A DNA stretch of 42,058 bases from an uncultured archaeon. Its GTDB lineage: Archaea > Asgardarchaeota > Lokiarchaeia > Sigyniarchaeales > SOKP01. The notes beneath the pieces were generated by a model that worked only from the letters and a program-made list of their open reading frames with translations, did no database searches and was not told the origin of the DNA. This document shows, in pieces, positions 1,689 through 41,345 of the stretch. Location of the stretch: assembly GCA_964493715.1 (NCBI GenBank), contig CAZBPC010000022.1, forward strand, positions 1 through 42,058. Direction: 5' to 3'. Position numbers and translations under genes: made by a program. Each line of letters starts with the position of its first letter. Within the stretch, counting starts at the first letter, position 1.

Positions 1689-1925
1689 TAATTTTAGGTT
1701 TACAAATTAATAAATCTACATGTATAAATTGATTCTTTTATCATTACTATTTAATAATATTCGATTTTGAATGGGGGGTTAAAGATGGGAAATTGATTGA
1801 GAAATGTTTAATAACAGTTCTTATTTACTAAATCTTGCACATTTTTAAGTTTAAATTGAAAGATTTAAAGTGTAAAATGACTCATTCAATTCATGTGAAA
1901 ATTGATAAAAAATCGGTTAAAAATT

Positions 1926-17730: not shown

Positions 17731-18273
17731 TTACAATAGACCCCCTTTACTCAGCAATTTTCTTGATAATGTCTCAAAAATTGCTTCTACATTCTCACCA
17801 GTTTTCGAAGAACATTCGAGAAAATCGAATAAATTTCGTGTTTTACCATAATCTTTAGCAAATTCGGGATCGACTACTCTCTTACCTTGGGATGCTAAAT
17901 CCGATTTCCCACCAACTAAAATCATTGGAAAACGAAAATTTTCATGTTCATTGGGTGTTTTCTGTATCACATCCATCCAACCTTCCATATTTTTTAAGCT
18001 AGAAAAGCGAGAAATATCATACATGAATATCCCCCCAGAAGCACCAATTAAATAATTGGGTAATAGATTTTTGAATCTATGTTCTCCAGCAAAATCCCAA
18101 ATTTGCAGGGTGATATTTATTCTATCAATCTCGATGGTTTTAATATAAAAATCCACGCCAATTGTCATCTTAAAATCCTCACTATATTTTCCTGAGATAT
18201 ACCTATTCACTAAAGTAGTCTTTCCGACTCCTCCATCACCAATTAAGCATACTTTATACCTAGCGTGTGGCAT
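17731..18273 (-). CDS. Rab-like small GTPase (Ras superfamily; eukaryotic signature protein)
   Basis: G1 GDGGVGKT, G2/RabF1 TIGVDF, G3 WDFAG, G4 GKSD, G5 CSSK. No C-terminal prenylation cysteines. Confidence 0.92.
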   Translation of the reverse strand: MPHARYKVCLIGDGGVGKTTLVNRYISGKYSEDFKMTIGVDFYIKTIEIDRINITLQIWDFAGEHRFKNLLPNYLIGASGGIFMYDISRFSSLKNMEGWMDVIQKTPNEHENFRFPMILVGGKSDLASQGKRVVDPEFAKDYGKTRNLFDFLECSSKTGENVEAIFETLSRKLLSKGGLL

Positions 18274-25604: not shown

Positions 25605-26816
25605 ATGGAAGATGTAGTTCAAAAGGCAAAGGACCACTTTGAAGGTTTAGTAAGGGTTCAATTAAAAAGAATTGAAGCTTTAAAGAGAGGAGCAGATTGG
25701 ATTGATTATTCTAAATTGAAACCACTCATAATAGGTGTAGCTGGTGGAGATTATATCGGACCAGAAATTACAAAACATGCCGAAAATATTTTAAAGTTTC
25801 TTTTAAAAGAAGAAGTTAAAAGCGGTAAAATTCAGTTTAAAAATATCGTTGGATTGACTATTGAAAACCGAGCAAAATTATTAAAAGCAATACCTGATGA
25901 TGCTCTGGTTGAGCTAAAGAAATGCCATGTGATTCTCAAGGGACCCACCCATACTCCTTCGTCAGCCGATCTTACTTCTGGTAAATGGCCAAACTTAGAA
26001 AGCGCAAATGTGTCGATGCGAAGAGAATTAGATTTATTTGCTAATGTTCGACCAGTTAAAGTTCCCGAGTTAGGTATTGATTGGATCTTTTTTAGGGAGA
26101 ACACGGAAGGAGCTTATGTATTGGGTTCACAGGGAATTAATGTAACAGAAGACTTAGCTTTTGATTTTTGTGTCCATACCAAACAAGGTACAGATAGAAT
26201 CCTGAGATTAGCATTTGATTATGCTAAAAAAACTGGACTAAATAGAGTATCTTTGATTACAAAAGCAAATGTTGTGAAAGCTACTGATGGAATGTACTTA
26301 AACATGGCGAAAAAGCTGGCAAAAGAAGAATACCCAGAAATAAGGTTTGATGATTGGTATATAGATATAATGGCCGCCAAATTAATTGATCCAGAACGTC
26401 AGAGAGACTTTAAAGTATTCGTGGCACCCAACTTATATGGAGATATCATTACTGATGAAGCAGCGCAAATTCAAGGATCCGTAGGTACTGCGGGAAGTGC
26501 AAATATCGGAAAACGCTATGCGATGTTTGAAGCCATACATGGTACAGCACCTAGAATGGTAGAAACAGGAAGAACTAAATACGCAGATCCAACAAGCATT
26601 ATTAAAGCTTCTGCAATGCTCTTAAATCATATTGGATACATAGAAAAAGCTAAAAAGCTAGAAATGGCATTAGATATCTGTGCATTATACGAGAAAAAGT
26701 TAAAAGTGACTGGAAGAGACACGGGTGCGACGGGTGCAGAGTTCGGCAAGTACATAATGGAAACCTTACAAGATCCAAAGATTGAAGAGAAATGGAATAG
26801 CTTTCAAAAAGCTTGA
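25605..26816 (+). CDS. icd: Isocitrate/isopropylmalate dehydrogenase family enzyme, probably isocitrate dehydrogenase
   Basis: GDYIGPEI, LKGP, SANVSMRRELDLFANVRP, RENTEG, NLYGDIITD and FEAIHGTAP motifs; lies directly downstream of aclBA. Substrate is inferred from context. Confidence 0.75.
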   Translation: MEDVVQKAKDHFEGLVRVQLKRIEALKRGADWIDYSKLKPLIIGVAGGDYIGPEITKHAENILKFLLKEEVKSGKIQFKNIVGLTIENRAKLLKAIPDDALVELKKCHVILKGPTHTPSSADLTSGKWPNLESANVSMRRELDLFANVRPVKVPELGIDWIFFRENTEGAYVLGSQGINVTEDLAFDFCVHTKQGTDRILRLAFDYAKKTGLNRVSLITKANVVKATDGMYLNMAKKLAKEEYPEIRFDDWYIDIMAAKLIDPERQRDFKVFVAPNLYGDIITDEAAQIQGSVGTAGSANIGKRYAMFEAIHGTAPRMVETGRTKYADPTSIIKASAMLLNHIGYIEKAKKLEMALDICALYEKKLKVTGRDTGATGAEFGKYIMETLQDPKIEEKWNSFQKA

Positions 26817-30260: not shown

Positions 30261-30414
30261 ATATGTTTCTTATTTCAAATGAATATTTAAGGTAGACGGT
30301 TATAATTTTAATTCGAAAAATTATTACTGAGCTTTCTAAAAGATTTACTATTTATATTATCTCTAGGCGATTTTATTTTCATAAAACTTTTAAAATCAAG
30401 GTGAAAGTGAAATA

Positions 30415-30516
30415 ATGAAACCTACTATTTTTTGAGCAACCAGAGGAACGGGAAGACTACGGGTTTAAATTATGGGTACTAGAGCCCACAAAAGTGTCGT
30501 TACAATTTTATATTAA
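30415..30516 (+). pseudogene. Possible decayed 5' stub of a Rossmann-fold NAD(P)-binding oxidoreductase
   Basis: MKPTIF*ATRGTGRLRV*IMGTRAHKSVVTILY* resembles the MKxxIFGATGxTGR motif, with TGA at the Gly position. A GGTGA RBS-like sequence lies upstream. Confidence 0.45.
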
Positions 30517-30577
30517 GAAATGTTATAGCTATTAAAAAATTCTGATACATTAATAAGAATTAAGAAATTGCGATGAT

Positions 30578-31918
30578 ATGATGACAAGAAAGAAAGTGGT
30601 AATTATAGGGGCCCTCGGAATGGATTTTCATGTTTTTAACACAGTATTCAGAGATAACAAGGAGTATGAAGTTATTGCGTTCACTATTGCTGGGGAACAA
30701 AATGTTGGAACCACTGAAGAAACTCAAAGGAGATATCCAGCAGAATTAGCTGGAAAATTATACCCAAAGGGTATTCCGATGCTTCCTGAAGAAAATCTCT
30801 CAGAAATTATAAAGCTCCATAAAATAGATGAAGTAGTGTTTGCATATTCTGATGTTTCACACGAAGAAGTAATGCATAAAGCTTCTCGAGCTTTATCTGC
30901 TGGAGCAAATTATCGATTGATATCAGGGAAGTTCACACAAATAGAATCCAATAAACCAGTAGTAGCTATATGCGCTGTTAGAACGGGATGCGGTAAAAGT
31001 CAAGTTTCCAGAGCAACTTATCGGTATCTAATGAGCAAAGGTTATAAGGTTGTTGCAGTAAGAGAACCAATGCCTTATGGAGATTTGATAAAACAAAATG
31101 TAATGCGATTTGAAAAATACGAAGATTTAGATAAATACGATTGTACAATTGAAGAACGGGAAGAATATGAACCCTATATAGAGCAGGGTCTTGTGATTTA
31201 TTCTGGAGTGGACTATGAAAAAATAATCAGACAGGCAGAAAAGGAAGCAGATATCATAATTTTCGATGGCGGAAACAACGAAATTTCGTTTTATGTTCCA
31301 GATTTACTTTTTATCGTAGTAGATCCATTGAGACCTGGACACGAAATGAAATATCATCCAGGTGAAGTGAATGCTCGATCAGCTGACGCATTTGTAATTA
31401 ACAAATTAAATAGTGCAAAAGCAGAAGATGTGAAAATTGTAGAAACTAATTTAAACGAGTTAAACCCTCAGGCAACTAGAATACATACCAATTCAGTTGT
31501 AACTATCGAAGGAAATCACGATTTAAAGGGTAAAAGGGTGATTGTTGTTGAAGATGGGCCAACTTTAACTCACGGAAACATGTCTTATGGTGCGGGATTT
31601 GTCGCAGCAACCAATAGTGGTGCTACGATCATCGATCCTAAACCCTACATTACTGGTACAATGAAAAAATTATTCGAAGAGTTTCCACAAATTACACAAA
31701 TAGTCCCAGCAATGGGGTACAACGACCAACAGATTAAAGACATGGAAGATACGCTTAATAAAGCAGATTGTGATATTATTATTGATGGTAGCCCGATAGA
31801 TCTAGAGAAATTAATTAAAAGCAATAAGCCCATCATTAGAGTCACATACGATATTGAACCAATATCCAGTCCAACTATCGAAGAAACATTAGATAAATTT
31901 ATTGAAAAATTTTTATAA
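30578..31918 (+). CDS. arcE: ArcE-type arginine synthetase (P-loop family often annotated cyclic 2,3-diphosphoglycerate synthetase-like/GTPase)
   Basis: DFHVFNTVFRDN, AYSDVSH, AVRTGCGKS, PMPYGDL, TIEEREEYE, DGGNNE, YHPGEVN, VEDGPTLTHG and PAMGY motifs. Clustered with OTC and carbamate kinase. Confidence 0.8.
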   Translation: MMTRKKVVIIGALGMDFHVFNTVFRDNKEYEVIAFTIAGEQNVGTTEETQRRYPAELAGKLYPKGIPMLPEENLSEIIKLHKIDEVVFAYSDVSHEEVMHKASRALSAGANYRLISGKFTQIESNKPVVAICAVRTGCGKSQVSRATYRYLMSKGYKVVAVREPMPYGDLIKQNVMRFEKYEDLDKYDCTIEEREEYEPYIEQGLVIYSGVDYEKIIRQAEKEADIIIFDGGNNEISFYVPDLLFIVVDPLRPGHEMKYHPGEVNARSADAFVINKLNSAKAEDVKIVETNLNELNPQATRIHTNSVVTIEGNHDLKGKRVIVVEDGPTLTHGNMSYGAGFVAATNSGATIIDPKPYITGTMKKLFEEFPQITQIVPAMGYNDQQIKDMEDTLNKADCDIIIDGSPIDLEKLIKSNKPIIRVTYDIEPISSPTIEETLDKFIEKFL

Positions 31919-31942
31919 AGAAATTTTTAAATTTTAATATGT

Positions 31943-31990
31943 AAAAGGGCTTGACATCAAGAACCCTTTTTTCATAAGTTTTTTATTTTT
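31943..31990 (+). terminator. Hairpin plus T-tracts between arcE and aor
   Basis: AAAAGGG-CTTGA-CA-TCAAG-AA-CCCTTTT, followed by further T-runs. Confidence 0.5.
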
Positions 31991-32009
31991 TCAGAAGGTG
32001 AAAAATAAA

Positions 32010-34202
32010 TTGATAATTGCAGAAAAAAAATATGAAATTCGTGAAGTCCAAAAAGGGTATGCTAATAGAACTCTATATATTAATCTTAGTAATAATGAGA
32101 TTCAGATCAGACCGGTCTTTGATGAAATGAAAGAAAAGTTTATCGGTGGAAAGGGATTTGATCTTTGGCTCATGTGGGTGAGCATGAATGGACTTCCTCG
32201 AGATAAAATTGTTAATTGGAATGACCCTGAAAATGAGATTTGTATTTCTTCGGGACCTTTAGGAGGAAACATCTTTTATCCTGGTTCGGGAAAATCAATA
32301 GTTACTACAATATCTCCTTTAACAGATATGATCATAGATTCAAATGTAGGGGGTTATTTCGGACCCTATTTAAAATTCTCGGGTTTTGACGCGATTGAAA
32401 TTCAAGGGAAAGCCCAAAAAGAGGTGTTAATATACATAGATGGTGTAGAGGGTTTTGTTCAAATTAAGGAAGTCGAAGATTCTGAAGGGCTATCAAATTA
32501 TTCTCATGAATTGACTCAACAACTTACAGCACAATACGCAGAAGATGATCGTGAAAAACAAAGAATTTCAGTTGTAAGTACGGGTCCGGGAGCAAAATAT
32601 TCGAATTGGGGTATGTTAAACTTCTCTTGGTATGTTCCAGGTCGCAATTGGGCATCAAGTAAACAAGCGGGGAGAGGCGGAATTGGTAGTGTTTTTGCGG
32701 ATAAACGTGTTAAAGCTTTGGTGTGTCGCTCTCCAAAAGTTTCCGTTAATTCTAATAATCCCGCTAATTTAGAAGAAGCTAGAAAAATAGGAATCGCACA
32801 TACCCAAGAAATAATTAAACTTGATCCTATTCAGAATGAAATGCGCAGAGTGGGGACGGGACACCTACCAGATATTATGAACGTGACTGATCTCTTACCA
32901 ACAGAAAATTATCGTTTCGGAGCTCATCGAGAAATCCGAGGAAAAAACATCCCTTACAATAGAGAGATCATGAGAGGAATATACTCTGGAAAAGAAGGAG
33001 GAGATGGATGTTGGATTGGCTGTACTGTTTCATGTTCTCACTATTCAGAAGGACATGAGGTCTTAACGGGTCCTTTTAAGGGACAAAAATTAATCGTTGA
33101 TGGACCAGAATATGAAACTATCGCTGGTTGTGGCTCAAATTGGGGAGTTTGGGACCCAAAATGGGTCTTAGAAGTAAATTTTTACTGCGATACCTATGGT
33201 TTAGATACAATTTCGGTAGGGACGGGAATAGCTTTTGTAATGGAATGCTTCGAAGCAGGCATTTTAAATAAAGAGAGGACTGGAGGACTAGAATTAAATT
33301 TTGGAGATGTTGAAGCAGCCGTAGAGTTGATTCATCAAATGGCAAAGGGTGAAGGTTTTGGAGTTATTGTAGGAAAAGGTATTAAATACATGAAAAAATA
33401 TTTTGTTGGAAATTTTGGAGCAGATCCACAATTTATACAAGATATTGGCATGGAACATAAAGGTTTAGAATTTTCTGAGTATGTAACTAAAGAATCCTTA
33501 GCACAACAAGGTGGATATGGACTAACTAATAAGGGACCACAACATGATGAAGCGTGGCTCATATTTGATGACGTGATTAGAAATTCGATACCATCATTCG
33601 AAGACAAGGCTAAAGCTCTGAGATATTTTCCATTATGGAGGACTTGGTTTAGTTTGTGTGGTTTATGCAAGTTACCATGGAATGATATCCAACCAACTAG
33701 CCAAGCAGATTATCCCATAAAAGATCCTAAAACAGGAGAGCTGGTTCGAGCAAAAATCCCAGATCACGTTGAAAATTATGTAAAATATTATTCAGCAGTT
33801 ACGGGAAATCAATCAACATCTAATGATCTCATAAACATGTCTGAAAGAGTGTATACCTTTCAACGGATATTTAATATTAGATTAGGTAAAGGACTTCGAG
33901 AACACGATTCAAATCTACCTTATAGAGCAGTTGGTCCAGTTACTTTACTTGAATACGAAAGCCGCGCTGAGAGATATGATACGCAACTTAAAGAGTTAGG
34001 ATTTAAAATTAAAGGTAAATCTACCGAAGAAAAAATAAAAATTCTCCGTAACTATCGTGAGGATCAGTACGTGAAACTTCAAGATGCAGTTTACTTAGAG
34101 CGGGGTTGGAATCAAAACGGTTGTCCTACTATAGAGTTAGTAAAAAAGTTAGGAATTGATTTTAATGAGATAATTGATATCATTACTCCTTTTCAAGAAT
34201 AA
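32010..34202 (+). CDS. aor: Aldehyde:ferredoxin oxidoreductase (tungsto/molybdo-bispterin AOR family)
   Basis: SPLT, SNVGGYFG, QAGRGGIG, CWIGCTVSC, GPEYET, CDTYGLDTIS and GLCKLPW motifs. TTG at 32010 is preferred because the GTG at 31998 lies within the GAAGGTGA RBS. Confidence 0.9.
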   Translation: MIIAEKKYEIREVQKGYANRTLYINLSNNEIQIRPVFDEMKEKFIGGKGFDLWLMWVSMNGLPRDKIVNWNDPENEICISSGPLGGNIFYPGSGKSIVTTISPLTDMIIDSNVGGYFGPYLKFSGFDAIEIQGKAQKEVLIYIDGVEGFVQIKEVEDSEGLSNYSHELTQQLTAQYAEDDREKQRISVVSTGPGAKYSNWGMLNFSWYVPGRNWASSKQAGRGGIGSVFADKRVKALVCRSPKVSVNSNNPANLEEARKIGIAHTQEIIKLDPIQNEMRRVGTGHLPDIMNVTDLLPTENYRFGAHREIRGKNIPYNREIMRGIYSGKEGGDGCWIGCTVSCSHYSEGHEVLTGPFKGQKLIVDGPEYETIAGCGSNWGVWDPKWVLEVNFYCDTYGLDTISVGTGIAFVMECFEAGILNKERTGGLELNFGDVEAAVELIHQMAKGEGFGVIVGKGIKYMKKYFVGNFGADPQFIQDIGMEHKGLEFSEYVTKESLAQQGGYGLTNKGPQHDEAWLIFDDVIRNSIPSFEDKAKALRYFPLWRTWFSLCGLCKLPWNDIQPTSQADYPIKDPKTGELVRAKIPDHVENYVKYYSAVTGNQSTSNDLINMSERVYTFQRIFNIRLGKGLREHDSNLPYRAVGPVTLLEYESRAERYDTQLKELGFKIKGKSTEEKIKILRNYREDQYVKLQDAVYLERGWNQNGCPTIELVKKLGIDFNEIIDIITPFQE

Positions 34203-34229
34203 AAATTATTATTTAAAATGTGATCCTAA

Positions 34230-36311
34230 ATGGAAAACATAACAAGCCATCCCATCCTTGAAATACCGGAAAGAAAAAAAATAAAATTCAAGTTTGACGG
34301 AAAAGAATTAACTGGATTTGAGGGATTGGTTATATCTTCGGTCTTGTTTCTTAATGGGATTAAAATTTTTGGACATCACATAAAAGATTCAAGTCCTCAG
34401 GGGATCTTTTGCGCTAATGGACAATGTTCTCAATGTAATGTAATCGCCAATAATATTCCAGTGAAAGCTTGCATGACACTGTTAGAAGATGGAATGGAGA
34501 TAAGAAGTTGCAATGGCTTACCAGAGTTACCTCTGGACGATAAATATATAGAAGTTGGCGATGTTGATATTATTAAGACAGAAGTTCTTGTTATAGGTGC
34601 GGGTCCAGCGGGATTATCTGCTACCAAACTTCTTGGAGAACATGAAATAGATGTAATACTAGTCGATGATAAAAATAGACTTGGGGGAAAATTAGTGCTT
34701 CAAACCCATAAATTTTTTGGTTCTCAGGAAGATGTATATGCTGGTAAGCGTGGTATTGATATTGCAGAAATTCTTGGTGATCAGGTAAAATTATTGGACT
34801 CCGTAAATATTTGGATTAATAGCACGGTTGTAGCTGTATTCAGTGACAAGTTAATTGGGGTTTTGAAGAATAATGAAGAATATGTTTTAATTTCGCCAAG
34901 AAATATATTAGTAGCAACGGGAGCGAGGGAAAAAATGCTTGTATTTCCAGGAAACACTTTACCGGGTGTATATGGTGCTGGTGCATTTCAAACATTGGTG
35001 AATCGAGATTTAATAAAAGCCGCAAAACAGATTTTCATTATTGGAGGAGGGAATGTTGGATTAATAGCAGGATATCATGCAATTCAAGCAGGAATAAATG
35101 TGGTCGGACTAATCGAAGCAATGCCATACTGTGGAGGATATAAAGTGCATGAAGATAAACTCCACCGCCTGGGTGTACCAATTTATACGAGACATACTGT
35201 CACAAGTGCTAATGGAAGTAATAATGTCGAATCAATAACTATTGGGCAAATTAATGAAAAAGGAGAAATTCTTCCAAATACTAAAAAAACCTTCAATTGT
35301 GATACAATACTAATAGCTATAGGTTTGAATCCTGTAGATGAGTTTTATCTTAAAGCAAAAGAATTTGGAATGAATGTGTGGGTTGCTGGAGATGCTCAAG
35401 AAATTGCTGAAGCGTCAGCTGCGATTTTTACGGGAAGAATTGAAGCGTTAAAAATGTTAGAAAAGATGGGAATCAAAGTTAAAGAAAATATCGATGATTT
35501 AGAAAAGTTTGCAAACATAATGAAGGCAAAACCACCACTTCCCAGTGAACCGAAAATTTTAGAAAAGGAAGATGGAATTTTTCCTCTCTTTCATTGTAAT
35601 CAAGAAATCCCATGTAATCCATGTACCTCGGTATGCCCTCAAGATCAAATTAATACAATTGATAATATCATCACACAACTTCCATACTTTAGAGATGAAA
35701 AAGATTGTATCGGATGTGGTAAATGTATAGCAGTATGTCCTGGTTTGGCTATTACATTAATAGATTATCGCAAAAATAAAGATTTTCCATCTGTTACACT
35801 CCCACTTGAGCTATCTGCTAATAAAATTGAAATAGGTAAAAAAGTACTTATTGTGAGTAACGATGCTGGATTAGGAGAATTCAAAGTTAAACGAGTGCGT
35901 ATATTACCCGAATTTCCTAAAACGCAACTCATCACTGTTGAAATACCGTCAAGAATCGCTAAACATGCTACGGGTATAAGATTAAATCAAAATTCTTATA
36001 ATGAATCGCTGAATTTATATCAGAAAAATTTTACTGAAAATGAAACAATTGTATGTCGTTGTGAACGCGTTTCAGTAGGAGAAATTCGACATTGGATTCG
36101 CAATGGTGTAAGGGATTTTAATGAATTGAAAGCATTGACAAAAGTTGGAATGGGGTCTTGTGGTGGAAAAACGTGCACCCCTCTTATTGATAGGATATTC
36201 CGTGAAGAAGGTGTTAATATTGATGAGGTTGTTCCTGGAACAAAGCGGCCTTTATTCATTGAAATGCCCTTGAAACTATTTGCTGGTATAAAGGAGAAAA
36301 AGGAGGATTAA
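34230..36311 (+). CDS. Fused Fe-S flavoprotein ([2Fe-2S] + FAD/NAD(P) + 2x[4Fe-4S] + BFD-like), proline dehydrogenase/sarcosine oxidase alpha-like subunit
   Basis: FCANGQCSQC...KAC; GAGPAG; ATGARE; GGGNVG; CNQEIPCNPCTSVCP; CIGCGKCIAVCP; CRCE...GMGSCGGKTC. Confidence 0.8.
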   Translation: MENITSHPILEIPERKKIKFKFDGKELTGFEGLVISSVLFLNGIKIFGHHIKDSSPQGIFCANGQCSQCNVIANNIPVKACMTLLEDGMEIRSCNGLPELPLDDKYIEVGDVDIIKTEVLVIGAGPAGLSATKLLGEHEIDVILVDDKNRLGGKLVLQTHKFFGSQEDVYAGKRGIDIAEILGDQVKLLDSVNIWINSTVVAVFSDKLIGVLKNNEEYVLISPRNILVATGAREKMLVFPGNTLPGVYGAGAFQTLVNRDLIKAAKQIFIIGGGNVGLIAGYHAIQAGINVVGLIEAMPYCGGYKVHEDKLHRLGVPIYTRHTVTSANGSNNVESITIGQINEKGEILPNTKKTFNCDTILIAIGLNPVDEFYLKAKEFGMNVWVAGDAQEIAEASAAIFTGRIEALKMLEKMGIKVKENIDDLEKFANIMKAKPPLPSEPKILEKEDGIFPLFHCNQEIPCNPCTSVCPQDQINTIDNIITQLPYFRDEKDCIGCGKCIAVCPGLAITLIDYRKNKDFPSVTLPLELSANKIEIGKKVLIVSNDAGLGEFKVKRVRILPEFPKTQLITVEIPSRIAKHATGIRLNQNSYNESLNLYQKNFTENETIVCRCERVSVGEIRHWIRNGVRDFNELKALTKVGMGSCGGKTCTPLIDRIFREEGVNIDEVVPGTKRPLFIEMPLKLFAGIKEKKED

Positions 36312-36315
36312 TTAG

Positions 36316-37482
36316 ATGGTAGAATATGATGTGATTATCATTGGTGCTGGAAGTATTGGGGTTCCAACTGCATTAGCAACTGCCAGTGATGGATTAAAAA
36401 CATTAGTAATAGATACTTTACCATCAGTATCTCAAGCTGATAATAAGCATGCAATAGGAGGCATCAGGGCAACCCATACTCAAAAAGGGAAAATAATGTT
36501 ATGTCAACGATCAATCGAAATTTTCAGGAACTGGGAAAGCCAATTTGGAGATGATATCTGGTGGAAGCAAGGAGGATATTGTTTTGTGGCTTATACTAAA
36601 GAGCATGAGAACACGCTTAAATTAAATGTGCAATTACAAAAATCCTTTGGTTTGGATATAGACTATGTTAGCAAGGAGGAAATAAAGAATTTAATTCCAG
36701 GAATTAATGAGGATAACTTACTTGGGGGAACTTATAGTCCAAAAGATGGCAACGCTTCCCCTCTCCTTTCCCTTCATGCTTTTTATCGCCAATCAAGAGA
36801 AAAAGGAGCTGAGTTTAAATTCAATGAGACCGTAACAGATATATTTTCTAAAAATGGAACGATCATAGGACTAAAAACAAATAAAAGTAAATATAACACG
36901 ACTCAAATTGTGAACGCAGCGGGAGGAAATGCTAATACGTTAGGAAAAATGGTAAACATTAATTTACCCGTGATTCCAGAATCCCATGAAGCGGGTATTA
37001 CTGAACCCGTAAAAAAAATTTTCAACCCTATGGTTGTTGATATGAGACCCGCTATAGATAATACTTTTGGAAACTCTAAAAATTATTATTTTTATCAAAA
37101 TAAAGAAGGTAAAATCATTTTTTGCCTTACTCCAGACCCAAGCATAATTGGTAAAGATAGAAGAGAAACAAGTTCATTCCTTCCTCAGATTACTAAACGA
37201 ATGATTTCCCTTATGCCCAGATTGAAAAATATAAAAATTCGTAGAACGTGGAGAGGGCTATATCCAATGACTCCTGATGGAAATCCTATTTTAGGGATCG
37301 TGGAGGGTATAAATGGATATGTAAATGCTGTGGGAATGTGTGGTCAAGGGTTCATGCTAGGTCCTGGCATTGGTGAACTCATAAGTAGATTTATACGGAA
37401 CAAATTAACTCCGCAAGATAAAGATATCCTTAATGAATTCTCCATTACAAGAGATTATAATAAGGAAGAAGAATTAAAGTAA
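36316..37482 (+). CDS. FAD-dependent amine/imino-acid dehydrogenase, DAO family (proline dehydrogenase/sarcosine oxidase beta-like)
   Basis: IIGAGSIG, GGIR, IVNAAG, RTWRGLYPMTPDGNPILG and GMCGQGFMLGPG motifs. Starts 4 bp after the alpha-like subunit. Confidence 0.82.
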   Translation: MVEYDVIIIGAGSIGVPTALATASDGLKTLVIDTLPSVSQADNKHAIGGIRATHTQKGKIMLCQRSIEIFRNWESQFGDDIWWKQGGYCFVAYTKEHENTLKLNVQLQKSFGLDIDYVSKEEIKNLIPGINEDNLLGGTYSPKDGNASPLLSLHAFYRQSREKGAEFKFNETVTDIFSKNGTIIGLKTNKSKYNTTQIVNAAGGNANTLGKMVNINLPVIPESHEAGITEPVKKIFNPMVVDMRPAIDNTFGNSKNYYFYQNKEGKIIFCLTPDPSIIGKDRRETSSFLPQITKRMISLMPRLKNIKIRRTWRGLYPMTPDGNPILGIVEGINGYVNAVGMCGQGFMLGPGIGELISRFIRNKLTPQDKDILNEFSITRDYNKEEELK

Positions 37483-37552
37483 AAATTTAAAGTAAGCTAC
37501 ATATAACTATCACAATATTGAAAAAAAAAGTCAATTGTAATTCTTAGAGTGA

Positions 37553-38491
37553 ATGAAAATGGTTAGACATTTATTAAAAATATCAGATTTGTCGAAAGTA
37601 GAATGTGAAAAGATAATATCGAAAGCTATAGAAATTAAAAATAATCCTCCGAAATTTAAAAGTGCATTAAAAGGAGAAACTCTCTTAATGCTATTCGAAA
37701 AACCCTCATTAAGAACCCGTATATCTTTTGAGACAGGAATGCAACAATTGGGTGGACATGCAATATTTTATTCTATAGTAGATTCCCCCTTAGGGAAAAA
37801 GGAAAACATCCACGATACTGCCAAAGTAGTATCATTATATGTGAATTTAATCGCTGCAAGGGTATACAAAAGAGAAGATATGCGAGATTTCGCTAAAGAT
37901 GCCAGCGTTCCATTAATCAACATGCTTGATGATTTTGCTCATCCTTGTCAGATTCTCTGTGATTTTCTTACCATTAAGGAAAAAAAAGGGCGTCTTAATA
38001 ATTTAAAAATGTCATTTTTTGGTGATGGATATAATAATGTTACTTATGATCTCATGAGAATGTGTGCGATGTTTGGATTAAGAATGGATGTTGCTTGTCC
38101 AAGCGAAACTGATTATTCTCCTGAACAAGAAGTTTTAGATGAAGTAGCGGAATTATCAAAAATTTCAGGTGCTGATGTAAGAGTCGTCCATGATGCTAAA
38201 GAAGCAGCTAAAGATGCAGAGATTATTTATACTGATTCATGGATGAGTTATGGGATTCCTAAGGAGCTAGAAGAAGAACGTAAAAAAATATTTATGCCAT
38301 ATCAAGTGACTGAAGAAATAATGAAAAGTGCTAAATCCGATGCTCTTTTCATGAATTGTCTCCCCGCTATGAGAGGTTCTGAACAAACGGCAGCTGTTAT
38401 AGATGGCCCTCAATCAATTGTTTTCGATCAAGCGAGAAATCGTCTTCACGGACAAAAAGCAATCATGCTATTTCTAAGGGATAAATTTTAA
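37553..38491 (+). CDS. arcB: Ornithine carbamoyltransferase (probably catabolic)
   Basis: FEKPSLRTR, HPCQ, GDGYNNV, TDSWMSYG, NCLP and NRLH motifs; directly upstream of carbamate kinase. Confidence 0.92.
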   Translation: MKMVRHLLKISDLSKVECEKIISKAIEIKNNPPKFKSALKGETLLMLFEKPSLRTRISFETGMQQLGGHAIFYSIVDSPLGKKENIHDTAKVVSLYVNLIAARVYKREDMRDFAKDASVPLINMLDDFAHPCQILCDFLTIKEKKGRLNNLKMSFFGDGYNNVTYDLMRMCAMFGLRMDVACPSETDYSPEQEVLDEVAELSKISGADVRVVHDAKEAAKDAEIIYTDSWMSYGIPKELEEERKKIFMPYQVTEEIMKSAKSDALFMNCLPAMRGSEQTAAVIDGPQSIVFDQARNRLHGQKAIMLFLRDKF

Positions 38492-38645
38492 TTCTCATTA
38501 TCTTAATTTTATCATCAAGAAATTCAAGGATGTATAGCAATTTCTTTTAAAAATAGATTATAATTTTTGATGGCTCTTATAATAAAATTTATAATTTTCC
38601 CTACAATACTATTATTTTTCACTTTGATATAGGAGTTGATAACAT

Positions 38646-39572
38646 TTGAAAACATTAATCATAGCACTTGGTGGGAATGCTCTCATAAAACCGGGAGAAA
38701 TAGGTACCACTGAAGAAATGATTAATAATTTACGATCCCCAATTAAGCAAATTGCAGAATTATCAAAAGAATATAACATTGTTATCACGCACGGAAATGG
38801 TCCCCAAGTAGGAAATCTTTTATTACAACAAGAAGCTACAGAAACTATTTCAAAAAGACCTCTACAAATATTGGTAGCAGAAACTCAAGGGCAAATTGGA
38901 TTCTTAATTGAATCCACTTTAGATGAAGAATTAATGACGCTAAACATGGATAACGAAAAATTTTTCCTGACAGTACTTACTTATGTTAAAGTCGATCAAA
39001 ATGATCCTGCCTTCAAACATCCAACAAAACCAATCGGACCATCATATAAAAGAAAAAAAACTGGTTATGTAAAAACATCTAAGGGGTGGAGACGTGTAGT
39101 TGCTTCTCCTAAGCCAATTAAAATTTATCAATGGCGTGAAATAAAAAAATTGATGGCACTAGGCGATTTTATTGTCATTGCTTGTGGAGGCGGAGGAGTT
39201 CCAGTCATAAAAGATGAAAAAAGACTATACGGTGTTGAGGCTGTAATTGATAAGGATCTTGCAAGTGCGAAATTAGGAGAACAAATTAGAGCTCAAATTC
39301 TCTTAATTGCATCTGATGTTGAAAAAGTTGCACTAAATTATGGTCGAATTGACTATAAATACTTGGATCTTATTTCCACAAGTGAAGCTAGAAGCTATAT
39401 GAAAGAAGGACATTTCCCTGCAGGCTCTATGGGTCCAAAAGTTCAAGCTGCGATAAATTTTCTAGAATCTGGAGGGGAACGTGCCATCATAACTTCTATT
39501 GAAAAAATAAAGGATGCAATAGAAGGAAAAGCAGGAACGCAGTTTTATATTAATATGGGAGAGAAAATCTAA
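38646..39572 (+). CDS. arcC: Carbamate kinase
   Basis: ALGGNAL, THGNGPQVG, PTKPIGP, WRRVVASP, GGGGVP, VIDKD and GSMGPKV motifs. TTG start with an AGGAG RBS. Confidence 0.95.
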   Translation: MKTLIIALGGNALIKPGEIGTTEEMINNLRSPIKQIAELSKEYNIVITHGNGPQVGNLLLQQEATETISKRPLQILVAETQGQIGFLIESTLDEELMTLNMDNEKFFLTVLTYVKVDQNDPAFKHPTKPIGPSYKRKKTGYVKTSKGWRRVVASPKPIKIYQWREIKKLMALGDFIVIACGGGGVPVIKDEKRLYGVEAVIDKDLASAKLGEQIRAQILLIASDVEKVALNYGRIDYKYLDLISTSEARSYMKEGHFPAGSMGPKVQAAINFLESGGERAIITSIEKIKDAIEGKAGTQFYINMGEKI

Positions 39573-39615
39573 AAAATAAAAACGATACAATGATGGCATA
39601 AGAAGAATTCTTTTA

Positions 39616-39927
39616 CTAAGAGGCAATCTCATCCGTAATTCTCGTGCCCTTAAGGGATGCTTTGCCAAGAGGGCTCTTCACCGTGCCCGACATGGTGTCA
39701 CCATCAACTTTGACATTGAATTCAAAAGTTAAGAATCGTGGAAATTTTCTCGAAGCCTTCCACATCAATTTGTCACCGTCAATTTTTCCATCCGTGATAT
39801 CACTGGCGCCTCTACGATATTCCATTCTACCAGTGATCGCATTACCTGCAAGGAAGAGATGCAAGGTGGATTTTTGAGTACCAAAAGGGGTCTTCATTTC
39901 TAATTTCCATATTTCATTAACAGACAT
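39616..39927 (-). CDS. Small hypothetical beta-rich protein with elevated GC
   Basis: 103 aa (WKLEMKTPFG...ITDGKIDGDKLMW...VDGDTMSG). Roughly 44% GC by hand count. Confidence 0.65.
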   Translation of the reverse strand: MSVNEIWKLEMKTPFGTQKSTLHLFLAGNAITGRMEYRRGASDITDGKIDGDKLMWKASRKFPRFLTFEFNVKVDGDTMSGTVKSPLGKASLKGTRITDEIAS

Positions 39928-40082
39928 AAATGATCACTTTAATAAATTGTTTAAACTTTATAATAATTTCCACTAATTTCAATTTTATAACCAGTGGTTG
40001 GTATGTTTGATTTGAAATAGAAGGAAAAGCAAGTACTCAATTTTTTTTAGAAAAAAATGATAATAAATCAACCGAAAACTGA

Positions 40083-41345
40083 TTAGCTAACAACGAATAC
40101 CTTTTCAATTATACTTAGAGCCCAATCGATTTCCTCTTTAGTAATTATTAAAGGAGGGGCAAATCTAATTGTTTTAGAATGAGTATGTTTAGCGAGTACT
40201 CCATTGTCTTTAAGTATTTCGACGATATGCCTTGCATCCGATTCAAACTCGACTGCCATTAAGAGTCCTTTGCCTCTAACTTCCTTGATTGGAACTATAG
40301 TTTTCTTTGCTGCAATATTTCTAAGCCCTTCTAAGAAATACGCCCCAGATTCCTTAGCTCTTTGAGCTAAATGATCATCAATATGGATATCAAGTGATTT
40401 CATGGCAACCGCACTAGCCAATGGATTTCCACCAAATGTTGATCCATGCGTACCTGGTGTAATGATATCAGGACCAATTATATCTCTCGTAGTGACCACT
40501 GCGGAGACGGGATAAACACCTCCTCCGAGCGCTTTTCCAAGTAACATCACATCCGGCTTCACATCTTCATGGTCACATCCAAAAAATTCCCCTGTCCTTC
40601 CGAAACCAGTTTGAATCTCATCAGCAATCATTAGAACATTGTATTTTGTGCAAATTTCCCTAATCTTTTTTAAGTAGCCTTCAGGAGGGATCTTTATCCC
40701 CGCTTCTCCTTGAATTGGCTCAAATAGGAATGCTGCTACGTTTTCAGCACCAATTTCTAAAATTGTATTTTCTAGTTTTTCAGCATCTCCATACGGAATA
40801 ATTACAAAACCGGGAGTGTAAGGGCCGAAGTTCCCATAGTATCTTACAGCTGCGATATCCGTACTAAATCCTACGATTGCTATTGACCGACCATGAAAAT
40901 TATCTCTACAAACAATAATTTTTGCCTCATTTTTAGAAATCTTTTTCTTGATATAGCCCCAAGCTCTCGCAACTTTTAACCCAGTAGAAACTGCTTCAGT
41001 CCCCGAGTTCATGGGCAATGCCATTATTCCAGATTTGTTTGGATCGTTGATATGTTGACCCACAACTTCGCATAATTTTTTTAAAAAGGGACCCATCATA
41101 TCGTTATAGAACGCGCGAGATGTTAATGTCACCTTATCTGCTTGTTCTTTTAACGCTTTTATAATTTCGGGGTGACAATGCCCCATATTTAGGGCTGAAT
41201 AAGCGGATAAACAATCTAAATACTTTTTACCTTCTGGATCATATACCCAGACACCCTCAGCTTTGCTAATAACAACGGGTATGGGGTGATAATTATGAGC
41301 ACAGTATTTATCATCCATTTCCATATAATCTTTTGAACTTGGCAT
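40083..41345 (-). CDS. rocD: Ornithine--oxo-acid aminotransferase (class III PLP enzyme)
   Basis: AHNYHP, LSAYSALNMGHCHP, LTSRAF, FHGR, EPIQGEAG, DEIQTG, GKALGGG, HGSTFGGNP and IRFAPPL motifs. Confidence 0.92.
   Translation of the reverse strand: MPSSKDYMEMDDKYCAHNYHPIPVVISKAEGVWVYDPEGKKYLDCLSAYSALNMGHCHPEIIKALKEQADKVTLTSRAFYNDMMGPFLKKLCEVVGQHINDPNKSGIMALPMNSGTEAVSTGLKVARAWGYIKKKISKNEAKIIVCRDNFHGRSIAIVGFSTDIAAVRYYGNFGPYTPGFVIIPYGDAEKLENTILEIGAENVAAFLFEPIQGEAGIKIPPEGYLKKIREICTKYNVLMIADEIQTGFGRTGEFFGCDHEDVKPDVMLLGKALGGGVYPVSAVVTTRDIIGPDIITPGTHGSTFGGNPLASAVAMKSLDIHIDDHLAQRAKESGAYFLEGLRNIAAKKTIVPIKEVRGKGLLMAVEFESDARHIVEILKDNGVLAKHTHSKTIRFAPPLIITKEEIDWALSIIEKVFVVS

What the first reader, a model, noticed from the sequence alone, without database searches (positions are those of the whole stretch)
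30578..41345. Deiminase-free, ATP-conserving arginine catabolic cluster extended with AOR and a proline-dehydrogenase-like complex
Seen: arcE-aor-alpha-beta-arcB-arcC are co-oriented with gaps of 4-154 bp, followed by a convergent rocD. No arginine deiminase, arginase or NAD-dependent P5C dehydrogenase is in the window. Known: ArcE (characterised in Thermococcus kodakarensis) converts Arg + ADP + Pi to citrulline + NH3 + ATP. OTC plus carbamate kinase give ornithine and a second ATP, and OAT gives glutamate-5-semialdehyde/P5C. Inference: a complete module yielding 2 ATP per Arg that then processes the ornithine skeleton by redox chemistry instead of excreting it. I do not know of this combined architecture being described, particularly in an Asgard archaeon.
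Basis: partly seen in the sequence, partly recalled or inferred. Interest (0 to 1): 0.9.

Follow-up and report, generated by a model that had tools for sequence, protein, structure and literature searches.

The report
Arginine-to-glutamate gene cluster in Lokiarchaeia
An Asgard archaeon keeps the genes of the ATP-yielding "arginine synthetase" route for breaking down arginine next to an ornithine aminotransferase, a tungsten-type aldehyde oxidoreductase and a proline-dehydrogenase-like iron-sulfur flavoenzyme; this hints, without proof, at an oxygen-free route from arginine and proline to glutamate.

Summary
Six co-oriented genes (gaps 79, 27, 4, 70 and 154 bp) and a convergent ornithine aminotransferase lie at the stated coordinates.

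Family searches identify OTC, carbamate kinase, OAT, an AOR-family enzyme and an alpha/beta pair. The pair's closest solved relative is Pyrococcus horikoshii L-proline dehydrogenase PDH1. The first gene belongs to the widespread "predicted GTPase" family to which the published ArcE description fits. I could not obtain TK2200 for a direct comparison.

The genome (100% complete by markers) gave no match for arginine deiminase, arginase, ArgG, ArgJ, ArgC, ProA or PutA-type ProDH.

Synteny holds in one family and a sister genus: 17 of 20 arcE-anchored loci carry AOR beside arcE, and 9 of 20 carry all seven genes. It was found in 0 of 20 loci from other Asgard families.

Against a dedicated role for AOR: its ortholog also occurs alone, for example in 34 of 43 genomes of a family with no OAT, alpha or ProDH match. 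A terminator-like hairpin follows arcE.

Verdict: a real, lineage-specific variant of the known ArcE pathway. The arginine-to-ornithine part is well supported. AOR oxidising glutamate semialdehyde is plausible but inferred. ArcE in Lokiarchaeota was already noted in print.

The parts
30578..31918 (+). ArcE-like protein (446 aa), a candidate arginine synthetase: Arg + ADP + Pi <-> citrulline + NH3 + ATP
   Evidence: No Pfam or NCBIfam family at E<=0.001. Sources name close relatives 'predicted GTPase' or 'cyclic 2,3-diphosphoglycerate synthase'. A solved cDPG synthetase (9sxb) matches only at E 0.0028, 20 bits, over 124 residues. There is one copy in the genome. A P-loop motif RTGCGKS lies at residues 135-141, in nearly invariant columns of the family alignment. 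Homologs sit within 8 kb of carbamate kinase in 14 of 80, and of OTC in 8 of 80, named loci from many phyla.
31925..31995 (+). Hairpin followed by U-runs in the arcE-AOR spacer (terminator-like)
   Evidence: MFE -12.2 kcal/mol, z = -2.2; 5 of 200 shuffles fold as well. T-runs occur in most, and G-rich/C-rich stems in several, of the arcE-AOR spacers of the 11 relatives examined.
31998..34202 (+). AOR-family tungsto/molybdopterin aldehyde:ferredoxin oxidoreductase (734 aa from the GTG start; orthologs are mostly 726 aa, so the true start may lie a few codons downstream)
   Evidence: AFOR_N E 2.9e-45 and AFOR_C E 1e-89. Far below every NCBIfam equivalog cut-off (94.8 vs 868 bits; 42.8 vs 1300 bits). 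Best solved relative is 1aor at E 2.7e-49. The cysteine motif, a fourth Cys and the GPEYE and His positions align. It is one of 12 AOR-family genes in the genome; the other 11 are 22-26% identical.
34230..36311 (+). Fused alpha subunit (693 aa): 2Fe-2S (Fer2_4) + FAD/NAD(P)-type Pyr_redox_2 + 4Fe-4S dicluster + BFD-like 2Fe-2S
   Evidence: Pfam domains. Best solved relative is 1y56_A (PH1363, PDH1 alpha) at E 1.5e-18. Residues 447-528 match a separate 170-aa Fer4 protein, and residues 599-684 a separate 99-aa BFD protein, of the split operons in other Asgard families; both matches are 38% identical.
36316..37482 (+). Beta subunit (388 aa), DAO-family flavoprotein; the presumed catalytic amine/proline dehydrogenase
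   Evidence: DAO E 4.2e-56. Best solved relative is 1y56_B (P. horikoshii PDH1 beta) at E 3.4e-53, against 1e-20 for sarcosine oxidase beta. It lies beside or within 3 genes of alpha in 16 of 18 alpha-anchored loci; the other 2 are cut by contig ends.
37553..38491 (+). Ornithine carbamoyltransferase (ArcB/ArgF), the only OTC in the genome
   Evidence: TIGR00658 scores 359.3 bits against a cut-off of 280.85. The only other carbamoyltransferase-like hit in the genome is 26% identical.
38646..39572 (+). Carbamate kinase (ArcC), TTG start
   Evidence: TIGR00746 scores 355.7 bits against a cut-off of 358.25. The subfamily model NF009007 scores 309.3 against a cut-off of 266. Single copy.
39616..39927 (-). 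103-aa ORF with no family; probably not a conserved gene
   Evidence: No Pfam or NCBIfam hit. No tblastn match in the 20 related loci. In several relatives CK and OAT lie only about 20-90 bp apart.
40083..41345 (-). Ornithine--oxo-acid aminotransferase (RocD/OAT), convergent with the cluster
   Evidence: TIGR01885 scores 526.5 bits against a cut-off of 378.4. It follows CK in 9 of 20 arcE-anchored loci and in both AOR-anchored cluster loci.

Best explanation
This is an accessory catabolic gene cluster of one Lokiarchaeia-type lineage. I read it in three modules.

Module 1 (well supported by homology and context; the chemistry comes from the T. kodakarensis work). ArcE converts Arg + ADP + Pi to citrulline + NH3 + ATP. 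OTC phosphorolyses citrulline to ornithine + carbamoyl phosphate. Carbamate kinase makes a second ATP.

Module 2 (supported). OAT transaminates ornithine to glutamate 5-semialdehyde (GSA), which is in equilibrium with P5C. Because the genome lacks ProA, ArgJ, ArgC, ArgG, arginase, ADI and PutA-type ProDH, imported arginine is the only recognisable source of ornithine and P5C. P5C can go to proline through the ProC encoded elsewhere.

Module 3 (inferred). The tight aor-alpha-beta unit makes GSA a hub. The PDH1-like flavoenzyme, whose alpha subunit has absorbed the two small Fe-S subunits, oxidises proline to P5C/GSA. The AOR-family enzyme oxidises GSA to glutamate with ferredoxin or flavodoxin as acceptor, standing in for the missing NAD-dependent P5C dehydrogenase. 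Glutamate would then enter the TCA-type enzymes encoded just upstream.
For: Gene identities.

ArcE family membership by context:
- There is one copy in the genome.
- It has only a remote match to a true cDPG synthetase.
- Homologs 43-55% identical sit near CK in 14 of 80 and near OTC in 8 of 80 named loci across bacterial and archaeal phyla.
- The family reaches a eukaryote, Creolimax, as PMC11032458 says of arcE.
- That paper (sections 6 and 15 read) states that homologs are annotated as putative GTPase, resemble cDPG synthase weakly, occur in Lokiarchaeota and sometimes lie by arcB/arcC.

Genome-wide gaps (100% complete by markers, 3.85% contamination):
- ADI 0 matches.
- The arginase family gives only an agmatinase, next to deoxyhypusine synthase.
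- ArgG 0; ArgJ 0; ArgC only a 29-bit match; ProA 0; Pro_dh 0.
- The two Aldedh proteins are far below the P5CDH cut-offs.
- ProC, an OCD-family gene and CPS are present.

Synteny:
- 17 of 20 arcE-anchored loci of the family/order have AOR beside arcE, and 9 of 20 have all seven genes.
- aor-alpha-beta is always contiguous, while insertions occur elsewhere in the cluster.
- In the 38 other genomes of the family, all five searched genes occur together in 16, none in 6, and all 20 genomes with alpha also have the AOR ortholog.
- A flavodoxin gene sits directly upstream of aor in 5 related loci, and next to arcE on a sixth, short contig.
Against: - No enzyme here has been assayed, and TK2200 was never compared directly.
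- The AOR ortholog group (52-89% identical) is not specific to this context. It stands alone in 18 of 20 AOR-anchored loci, with no conserved neighbour.
- AOR is present in 7 genomes of the same family that gave no arcE, alpha, OAT or CK match.
- AOR is present in 34 of 43 genomes of family f7, where OAT, alpha and Pro_dh each gave 0 of 43. At least there, it must use another substrate.
- Family f14 has OAT in 6 of 7 genomes but the AOR ortholog in 0 of 7.
- Two generic aldehyde dehydrogenases elsewhere in the genome could oxidise GSA.
- The substrate of alpha/beta is not fixed by homology. The same heterooligomeric group includes opine, D-hydroxyproline and HCN-forming enzymes (PMC4575208, passages read).
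- A hairpin plus U-run after arcE and AT-rich spacers of 70-154 bp argue for several transcripts.
- From recalled redox potentials, not from any call: proline oxidation is a poor electron source for ferredoxin, so the direction and acceptor of alpha/beta in a strict anaerobe are unclear.
Confidence: 0.5

Rival explanations
1. Only arcE, OTC, CK and OAT work together: arginine goes to ornithine with 2 ATP, then to P5C and proline via ProC, as in T. kodakarensis. The aor-alpha-beta unit is a separate redox operon that happens to have been inserted between arcE and arcB and hitch-hikes with the island. AOR would be a general aldehyde scavenger, and alpha/beta would act on proline or another amine unrelated to arginine.
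For: - One related genome has arcE-OTC-CK-OAT with no aor/alpha/beta (L018).
- AOR and alpha/beta are each encoded apart from the arginine genes in other families.
- AOR occurs widely without any GSA source.
- There is a terminator-like element after arcE.
- PMC11032458 (abstract and section 13 read) shows that the Arg -> Orn -> Pro route in T. kodakarensis needs no AOR.
Against: - The insertion site and gene order are kept across four genera of the family and a genus of the sister family, at 59-89% protein identity.
- The five genes are gained or lost together: 16 genomes have all, 6 have none, out of 38.
- Both alpha/beta (if it is a proline dehydrogenase) and OAT produce the same aldehyde, and the genome has no dedicated enzyme for that aldehyde.
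Confidence: 0.25
2. Alpha/beta is not a proline dehydrogenase. It is a flavin-dependent secondary-amine (opine-type or N-alkyl-amino-acid) dehydrogenase that releases arginine or ornithine plus a carbonyl compound. AOR oxidises the aldehyde by-product, so aor-alpha-beta feeds the ArcE pathway from the top rather than draining it.
For: - Flavin-containing opine dehydrogenases, D-hydroxyproline dehydrogenase, HCN synthase and archaeal L-proline dehydrogenase form one heterooligomeric group within the DAO superfamily (PMC4575208, passages read).
- Alpha and beta also hit the sarcosine-oxidase alpha/beta families.
- A PutA-type Pro_dh gene lies 3-4 kb from alpha/beta in 3 of 18 alpha-anchored loci. 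If that is meaningful, it argues that alpha/beta is not redundant with a proline dehydrogenase.
- An Amidohydro_3 gene is inserted between beta and OTC in 4 related loci.
Against: - Among solved structures, beta matches PDH1 beta far better (184 bits) than sarcosine oxidase beta (77 bits) or other DAO enzymes.
- The split operons in other Asgard families have the four-gene layout that I recall for the Thermococcus alpha-beta-gamma-delta proline dehydrogenase (the recollection comes from no call).
- No opine dehydrogenase sequence was available for comparison.
Confidence: 0.1
3. The cluster runs in the biosynthetic direction: proline (or glutamate reduced by AOR) -> GSA -> ornithine (OAT) -> citrulline (OTC with carbamoyl phosphate) -> arginine (ArcE consuming ATP and NH3). 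This would replace the missing ArgG/ArgH route.
For: - ArgG gave 0 matches, as did ArgJ and ArgC above cut-off, so no standard arginine synthesis is recognisable.
- CPS is present.
- PMC11032458 (section 15 read) raises a biosynthetic role for ArcE in organisms lacking ArgG/ArgH, and shows reversibility in vivo.
Against: - Carbamate kinase, which the same paper treats as the catabolic signature, is in the cluster.
- CK and arcE co-vary in the family.
- The reported equilibrium constant favours citrulline + ATP (abstract read).
- Six genomes of the same family, three of them in the same genus, gave no match for any of the five genes. That is unexpected for an essential biosynthetic route, unless arginine is imported.
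Confidence: 0.1
4. The first gene is a cyclic 2,3-diphosphoglycerate synthetase, as some database names say, and has nothing to do with arginine.
For: NCBI source names for close relatives. The only solved-structure hit is a cDPG synthetase.
Against: - That hit is 20 bits, E 0.0028, over 124 of 446 residues.
- Family members in bacteria, archaea and a eukaryote score 200-530 bits.
- The family recurrently neighbours carbamate kinase and OTC.
Confidence: 0.02

Closest known systems
Arginine synthetase (ArcE) pathway of Thermococcus kodakarensis: ArcE TK2200, ArcB TK0871, ArcC TK2158, with OrnAT TK2101 (PMC11032458; PMC13260591)
   Same: The enzyme set is the same: an ArcE-like protein, OTC, carbamate kinase and an ornithine aminotransferase. 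Both lack ADI and ArgG. The expected yield is 2 ATP per arginine, with ornithine passed on to P5C.
   Different: By their locus numbers the T. kodakarensis genes are scattered; here they are clustered. Here CPS is present, so the pathway is not needed for carbamoyl phosphate. An AOR and a PDH-like complex are embedded in the cluster. Identity to TK2200 was not measured.
Classical arginine deiminase pathway, arcABC(D)
   Same: OTC and carbamate kinase are clustered with the enzyme that converts arginine to citrulline.
   Different: No ADI: 0 matches in the genome. The same search does find full-length ADI genes next to CK in 3 of 199 Asgard genomes. No antiporter gene is in the cluster, and ornithine is apparently metabolised further.
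Pyrococcus horikoshii L-proline dehydrogenase PDH1 (PDB 1y56), and the alpha-beta-gamma-delta PDH of Thermococcus
   Same: Beta and alpha are the best solved-structure matches (E 3.4e-53 and 1.5e-18). The two genes are adjacent, and other Asgard families have separate Fer4 and BFD small subunits.
   Different: Here alpha is a 693-aa fusion that carries the 4Fe-4S and BFD 2Fe-2S modules. The substrate is untested. The AOR neighbour was not found described in my searches.
Pyrococcus furiosus AOR and FOR (PDB 1aor, 1b25)
   Same: Same two-domain architecture. The Fe-S cysteines and the Glu and His positions align.
   Different: The match is only 171 and 149 bits. The protein is about 120 residues longer, and the first two cysteines are one residue further apart. 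It is below every NCBIfam equivalog cut-off. It is a distinct subfamily, seen so far only in Asgard-labelled records among the best 120 hits.
PutA / RocD-RocA logic: proline dehydrogenase or OAT followed by NAD-dependent P5C dehydrogenase
   Same: Two routes converge on GSA/P5C, which is then oxidised to glutamate.
   Different: No PutA-type ProDH and no recognisable P5C dehydrogenase. The proposal is that a flavo-Fe-S complex and a pterin enzyme do these steps with low-potential carriers.

Membership tests
ArcE (arginine synthetase) | Close, reciprocal homology to the characterised enzyme TK2200 | not testable with these tools
   No Thermococcales sequence could be reached. There was none among the 80 named loci kept, the 20 cluster look-ups, or the 120 best hits of an Aciduliprofundum-labelled homolog.
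ArcE (arginine synthetase) | Fits the family as the paper describes it: annotated as putative GTPase; weak similarity to cDPG synthase; present in Lokiarchaeota, many bacteria and a few eukaryotes | tested here: met
   Source names 'predicted GTPase' and 'cDPG synthase'. 9sxb matches at E 0.0028. Named hits span many bacterial and archaeal phyla. One representative comes from Creolimax. Paper sections 6 and 15 were read.
ArcE (arginine synthetase) | Genomic association with arcC/arcB and complementarity with ADI | tested here: met
   OTC and CK lie in the same cluster. CK is within 8 kb in 14 of 80, and OTC in 8 of 80, unrelated loci. ADI gave 0 matches in this genome. In the family, arcE and CK are both present or both absent in 32 of 38 genomes.
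ArcE (arginine synthetase) | Nucleotide-binding P-loop | tested here: met
   RTGCGKS lies at residues 135-141; R135, T136, G137, G139 and K140 are nearly invariant in a 31-sequence alignment. That this loop binds ADP/ATP is my inference.
ArcE (arginine synthetase) | Catalyses Arg + ADP + Pi <-> citrulline + NH3 + ATP | not testable with these tools
   Needs an enzyme assay.
AOR family (tungsto/molybdopterin aldehyde:ferredoxin oxidoreductases) | AFOR_N plus AFOR_C domains | tested here: met
   E 2.9e-45 and 1e-89, both covering nearly the whole profiles.
AOR family (tungsto/molybdopterin aldehyde:ferredoxin oxidoreductases) | Four cysteine ligands of the 4Fe-4S cluster, and the catalytic Glu and His | tested here: met
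   In the alignment to 1aor, three clustered Cys align (the first two are one residue further apart), a fourth Cys aligns, and the GPEYE and His positions are kept. Which residues are the ligands and catalytic groups in 1aor is recalled, not taken from a call.
AOR family (tungsto/molybdopterin aldehyde:ferredoxin oxidoreductases) | Equivalog of a characterised member (AOR/YdhV, GAPOR) | tested here: not met
   94.8 bits against a cut-off of 868; 42.8 bits against 1300. I therefore file it as a family member of unknown specificity.
Archaeal heterooligomeric L-proline dehydrogenase (PDH1/PDH2 type) | DAO-family beta subunit closest to the PDH beta | tested here: met
   1y56_B scores 184 bits at E 3.4e-53; the next distinct enzyme scores 89 bits.
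Archaeal heterooligomeric L-proline dehydrogenase (PDH1/PDH2 type) | Adjacent Pyr_redox_2 alpha subunit related to PH1363, with small Fe-S subunits | tested here: met
   1y56_A matches at E 1.5e-18 over residues 14-258. Alpha and beta are adjacent. The Fe-S subunits are fused here and separate elsewhere.
Archaeal heterooligomeric L-proline dehydrogenase (PDH1/PDH2 type) | L-proline as substrate | not testable with these tools
   Related complexes use opines, D-hydroxyproline or glycine (PMC4575208, passages read).
Arginine deiminase (ADI) pathway | Presence of arcA (ADI) | tested here: not met
   PF02274 gave 0 matches in a genome that is 100% complete by markers. The control search rang in 3 of 14 known genomes.
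Ornithine carbamoyltransferase / carbamate kinase / ornithine aminotransferase | Score above the curated equivalog or subfamily cut-off | tested here: met
   OTC: 359.3 against 280.85. OAT: 526.5 against 378.4. CK: 355.7 against 358.25 for the equivalog model, and 309.3 against 266 for the subfamily model.

The most novel reading that the evidence does not exclude
aor-alpha-beta is a dedicated low-potential redox node around glutamate semialdehyde/P5C in a strict anaerobe.

AOR oxidises GSA to glutamate and reduces ferredoxin or flavodoxin. The fused flavo-Fe-S alpha/beta complex (2Fe-2S, FAD/NAD(P) site, two 4Fe-4S, BFD 2Fe-2S) then does one of two things. It either combines those low-potential electrons with the high-potential electrons of proline oxidation to reduce NAD(P)+ (confurcation), or it runs backwards as a ferredoxin-dependent P5C reductase.

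In the second case, arginine-derived P5C is dismutated to glutamate plus proline. This would be a redox-balanced arginine fermentation, yielding 2 ATP per arginine, that needs no hydrogen-consuming partner. Neither mechanism is described for Asgard archaea or for PDH-type enzymes in the literature I could search.
Probability: 0.12. Interest if true: 0.8.

Novelty: new variant of a known kind. Interest (0 to 1): 0.5.

Why it matters
Asgard archaea are thought to live by fermenting amino acids, and their energy budget matters for models of eukaryote origins.

The searches show that the ArcE-like gene and carbamate kinase are widespread in the phylum sample: 164 and 149 of 199 genomes. True ADI is rare, at 3 of 199. 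The 2-ATP route is therefore probably the main arginine pathway of the group.

The cluster studied here adds a testable proposal for what happens to the carbon skeleton. Ornithine and proline would converge on glutamate semialdehyde, which a pterin enzyme would oxidise with ferredoxin in place of an NAD-dependent dehydrogenase.

If that holds, it gives a first physiological substrate to an uncharacterised AOR subfamily. It would also give an anaerobic counterpart of the PutA/RocA step. If it fails, the cluster is still a clean natural example of an arcE-arcB-arcC-OAT island, useful for choosing enzymes to express.

Tried and rejected
1. Direct anchor to TK2200. No Thermococcales sequence was reached.
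- Cluster look-ups of 20 family representatives gave names for 8 of 20, none Thermococcales.
- The genome-contig scan kept 80 of 597 confirmed stretches, none Thermococcales.
- The last protein search, with an Aciduliprofundum-labelled homolog, returned Thermoplasmata, Euryarchaeota, Bathyarchaeota and Anaerolineae labels only.

2. Expression. No RNA holder was listed for window 30300-39700.

4. ESM Atlas. It did not hold the window protein. The stored 85%-identical homolog returned only 'putative GTPase' and 'cDPG synthetase' clusters.

6. Neighbours of the stand-alone AOR orthologs. Nothing was conserved across families in 18 loci.

7. Neighbours of alpha/beta in other families. These were housekeeping or transport genes: P-type ATPase, ZnuA/ABC-3, SDR, KaiC-like, CDC48, TiaS. 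They were rejected as uninformative, except for a Pro_dh 3-4 kb away in 3 loci.

8. Literature.
- Asgard + arginine + carbamate kinase + ornithine: 1 paper, unrelated.
- Formaldehyde ferredoxin oxidoreductase + semialdehyde + arginine + proline: 0 papers.
- Lokiarchae + AOR + arginine + proline dehydrogenase, at least 3 of 4 terms: 3 papers, unrelated.
- Prometheoarchaeum + arginine + ornithine: 1 paper, unrelated.
- arcE + arginine synthetase: 3 papers.
- Asgard archaea + arginine + AOR + amino acid: 1 paper, unrelated.
- For the unrelated papers I saw only the search listings.

9. Complex prediction was not used. My best explanation does not require AOR to bind alpha/beta.

10. PF02274 across the phylum gave 96 of 199 genomes with a match. 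Most are short ORFs of about 250-350 aa covering part of the model, which I read as amidinotransferase/DDAH-like rather than ADI. Only 3 hits are full-length. I did not study the short ones further.

Full report
**What is there**

- 30578-31918 (+), 446 aa
- 31998-34202 (+), 734 aa
- 34230-36311 (+), 693 aa
- 36316-37482 (+), 388 aa
- 37553-38491 (+), 312 aa
- 38646-39572 (+), 308 aa
- a small ORF at 39616-39927 (-)
- 40083-41345 (-), 420 aa

The spacers are 79, 27, 4, 70 and 154 bp.

Family searches name the last three large genes securely:
- Ornithine carbamoyltransferase: TIGR00658, 359 bits against a cut-off of 281.
- Carbamate kinase: TIGR00746, 355.7 against 358.25; subfamily NF009007, 309 against 266.
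- Ornithine-oxo-acid aminotransferase: TIGR01885, 526 against 378.

The second gene has both AOR domains. The third combines Fer2_4, Pyr_redox_2, a 4Fe-4S dicluster and a BFD-like 2Fe-2S domain. The fourth is a DAO-family flavoprotein. The first has no Pfam or NCBIfam family at E<=0.001.

The close relatives of both the first gene and the AOR carry the labels Lokiarchaeota, Promethearchaeota, Hermodarchaeota and Hodarchaeota. The Asgard assignment is therefore reasonable.

**The ArcE-like gene**

Its close relatives are named 'predicted GTPase' or 'cyclic 2,3-diphosphoglycerate synthase' by their sources. Against all solved structures, the only relevant hit is a cDPG synthetase at E 0.0028, 20 bits, over 124 residues.

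An exhaustive phmmer search finds 445 representative clusters at E<=1e-30. Full-length members are 31-58% identical to it. One of them comes from the eukaryote Creolimax.

The paper that defined arginine synthetase is PMC11032458; I read the abstract and sections 6 and 15. It says that TK2200 homologs are annotated as putative GTPases, resemble cDPG synthase only weakly, occur in many bacteria, a few eukaryotes and Lokiarchaeota, sometimes lie near arcB/arcC, and complement the absence of ADI in genomes that have arcC. All of these descriptors fit.

I tested the context claim independently. In 80 named loci from many bacterial and archaeal phyla, the homolog is 43-55% identical to the window protein. 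Within the 8 kb flanks, carbamate kinase is found in 14 of 80, OTC in 8 of 80, OAT in 4 of 80, and AOR or alpha in 0 of 80.

The gene is single-copy here and carries a P-loop in nearly invariant columns.

What I could not do is compare it with TK2200 itself. No Thermococcales sequence surfaced. Membership is therefore inferred, not measured.

**Genome-wide background**

The genome is 3.68 Mb in 160 contigs, 100% complete by markers, with 3.85% contamination.

No match was found for:
- ADI
- ArgG
- ArgJ
- ProA
- PutA-type Pro_dh

Other results:
- ArgC gave only a 29-bit match.
- The one arginase-family gene scores as agmatinase and sits beside deoxyhypusine synthase and ArgRS.
- The two Aldedh proteins are generic and far below the P5C dehydrogenase cut-offs.
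- ProC, an OCD-family gene and the CPS large subunit are present.
- OTC, CK, alpha and beta are single-copy, and there are 12 AOR-family genes.

With the usual caution about draft genomes, imported arginine is the only recognisable source of ornithine. Ornithine or proline are the only recognisable sources of P5C. No standard enzyme for GSA -> glutamate is recognisable.

**Alpha/beta**

The best solved relatives are the two chains of the P. horikoshii L-proline dehydrogenase complex 1y56. Beta matches at E 3.4e-53 (184 bits), against 77 bits for sarcosine oxidase beta. Alpha matches at E 1.5e-18.

In 18 alpha-anchored loci from other Asgard families, beta lies next to or within three genes of alpha in 16; the other two are cut by contig ends. 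Four of these loci have a split layout: MFS transporter, a 495-aa alpha, a 170-aa Fer4 protein, a 99-aa BFD protein, then beta. Residues 447-528 and 599-684 of the window alpha align to those two small proteins at 38% identity. The window alpha is therefore a three-subunit fusion.

The substrate is not settled by homology. The same heterooligomeric group contains opine, D-hydroxyproline and HCN-forming enzymes (PMC4575208, passages read).

**AOR**

The best solved relatives are P. furiosus AOR (171 bits) and FOR (149 bits). The cluster cysteines, a fourth cysteine and the GPEYE and His positions align. It is far below every equivalog cut-off. The best 120 database relatives, 69-87% identical and mostly 726 aa, all carry Asgard or metagenome labels. 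It is an uncharacterised subfamily.

**Is the juxtaposition conserved?**

I fetched 20 arcE-anchored loci from the same family (f1) and order.
- 17 have the AOR ortholog beside arcE.
- 9 show all seven genes in the window's order.
- 5 end or break off after OTC.
- 3 end at a contig edge after AOR or alpha.
- 2 are contigs too short to tell.
- 1 (L018) has arcE-OTC-CK-OAT with no AOR/alpha/beta.

The genera involved are g1, g2, g4 and g5 of the family, and g10 of the sister family.

In 20 arcE-anchored loci from other Asgard families, none has AOR, alpha, beta, OTC or OAT in the 20 kb fetched, and one has CK.

Within the conserved loci, aor-alpha-beta is always contiguous. Other genes are inserted elsewhere: a flavodoxin directly upstream of aor in 5 loci (and next to arcE on a sixth, short contig), an Amidohydro_3 gene between beta and OTC in 4, and a PIN/VapB pair in 3.

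Across the 38 other genomes of the family, the five searched genes (arcE, AOR, alpha, OAT, CK) are all present in 16 and all without a match in 6. AOR alone is present in 7, and 9 show partial patterns, several of them on fragmented assemblies. All 20 genomes with alpha also have AOR (compiled). The island thus behaves as one accessory unit, apart from AOR.

**Evidence against a dedicated AOR role**

- The AOR ortholog is present in 93 of 199 sampled genomes (E<=1e-120).
- In 18 of 20 AOR-anchored loci it stands alone, with no neighbour conserved across families.
- Family f7 has it in 34 of 43 genomes, yet OAT, alpha and Pro_dh each gave 0 of 43 there.
- Genera g3, g6 and g8 of the window's own family keep AOR (7 of 7) without arcE, alpha, OAT or CK.
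- Family f14 has OAT in 6 of 7 genomes and AOR in 0 of 7.

In those lineages, the enzyme at 52-71% identity must serve another aldehyde. The GSA assignment here rests only on the conserved embedding and on the missing P5C dehydrogenase.

**Transcription**

The arcE-AOR spacer folds into a hairpin followed by U-runs (MFE -12.2 kcal/mol, z = -2.2). T-runs occur in most, and G-rich/C-rich stems in several, of the spacers of 11 relatives. No RNA run holds the region. I therefore describe a gene cluster with a tight aor-alpha-beta core, not an operon.

**Phylum-wide picture**

In the 199-genome sample:
- The ArcE-like gene is in 164 genomes.
- Carbamate kinase is in 149.
- Full-length ADI is in only 3, each directly beside a CK.

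This fits the paper's complementarity rule. It suggests that the ArcE route is the usual Asgard way to use arginine.

**Mechanism proposed**

- Shown by homology and context: Arg -> citrulline (+ATP) -> ornithine + carbamoyl phosphate -> (+ATP) CO2 + NH3; then ornithine -> GSA/P5C by OAT.
- Inferred: proline -> P5C by alpha/beta, and GSA -> glutamate by AOR with ferredoxin or flavodoxin. Glutamate would then pass to the TCA-type enzymes encoded upstream in the window: aconitase, fumarase/aspartase, succinyl-CoA synthetase, ATP-citrate lyase and isocitrate dehydrogenase.
- Rivals: aor-alpha-beta is an unrelated hitch-hiking operon; alpha/beta is an opine-type enzyme that feeds arginine in; the cluster runs biosynthetically, because ArgG is missing; the first gene is a cDPG synthetase.

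**Novelty**

The ArcE pathway, its presence in Lokiarchaeota and its occasional clustering with arcB/arcC are in print (PMC11032458).

I found no paper that links it with an AOR or a PDH-type complex.

I rate this a new variant of a known kind, of moderate interest.

Noticed in passing
window 1902-3854, 9591-10982, 18976-20790, 22332-25460, 25605-26816: A run of TCA-type genes lies upstream of the arginine cluster: aconitase, a class II fumarase/aspartase-type lyase (not ArgH), succinyl-CoA synthetase beta/alpha, ATP-citrate lyase (two genes) and isocitrate dehydrogenase. In three related loci (L008, L009, L010), the ACL large subunit and the isocitrate dehydrogenase sit directly upstream of arcE.
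   Followed up: partly
window 31925-31995 and the arcE-AOR spacers of L008-L021: A hairpin with a G-rich/C-rich stem followed by U-runs sits right after arcE. Comparable stems and T-runs recur in several relatives. This could be an archaeal terminator or a regulatory element.
   Followed up: partly
L006:7543-8106 and equivalents in L007, L011, L016, L022, L024: A 187-aa flavodoxin (Flavodoxin_5) is inserted directly upstream of aor in five related genomes, and lies next to arcE on a sixth, short contig. The window genome has only a weak homolog, on contig C43.
   Followed up: partly
L012:7709-9346 and equivalents in L013, L024, L128; G000 contig C55: A 545-aa Amidohydro_3 protein is inserted between beta and OTC in four related loci. 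The window genome has a 59%-identical copy elsewhere, on C55. Its function is unknown.
   Followed up: partly
window 39573-40082: The CK-OAT spacer is 510 bp here and holds an unconserved 103-aa ORF. In several relatives CK and OAT lie only about 20-90 bp apart.
   Followed up: partly
window 13922-17572: A 1216-aa fusion protein combines CheB methylesterase, CheR methyltransferase, PAS domains and a histidine-kinase ATPase domain.
   Followed up: no
window 17731-18273 and L012:2519-3235: Ras/Arf-family small GTPases, typical eukaryote-like Asgard genes. One is in the window and another lies near the cluster in relatives.
   Followed up: no
L148:4796-5722, L156:2301-3224, L157:4169-5095: A PutA-type proline dehydrogenase gene (Pro_dh; the L148 copy scores E 7.5e-40) lies 3-4 kb from alpha/beta in three loci of two other Asgard families, separated by unrelated genes.
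   Followed up: partly
G060:C49, G034:C20, G189:C159: The only full-length ADI genes found in the 199-genome sample each lie directly beside a carbamate kinase. Two of these genomes carry a second CK.
   Followed up: no
G190 (L128) and G168 (L129): Two genomes of the same family carry AOR-alpha-beta-OTC-CK-OAT but gave no arcE match. In G168 the contig starts just before AOR. In G190, 3.7 kb upstream of AOR holds no arcE.
   Followed up: partly
window 20982-22109: An ADP-ribosylglycohydrolase gene sits between the succinyl-CoA synthetase and ATP-citrate lyase genes.
   Followed up: no
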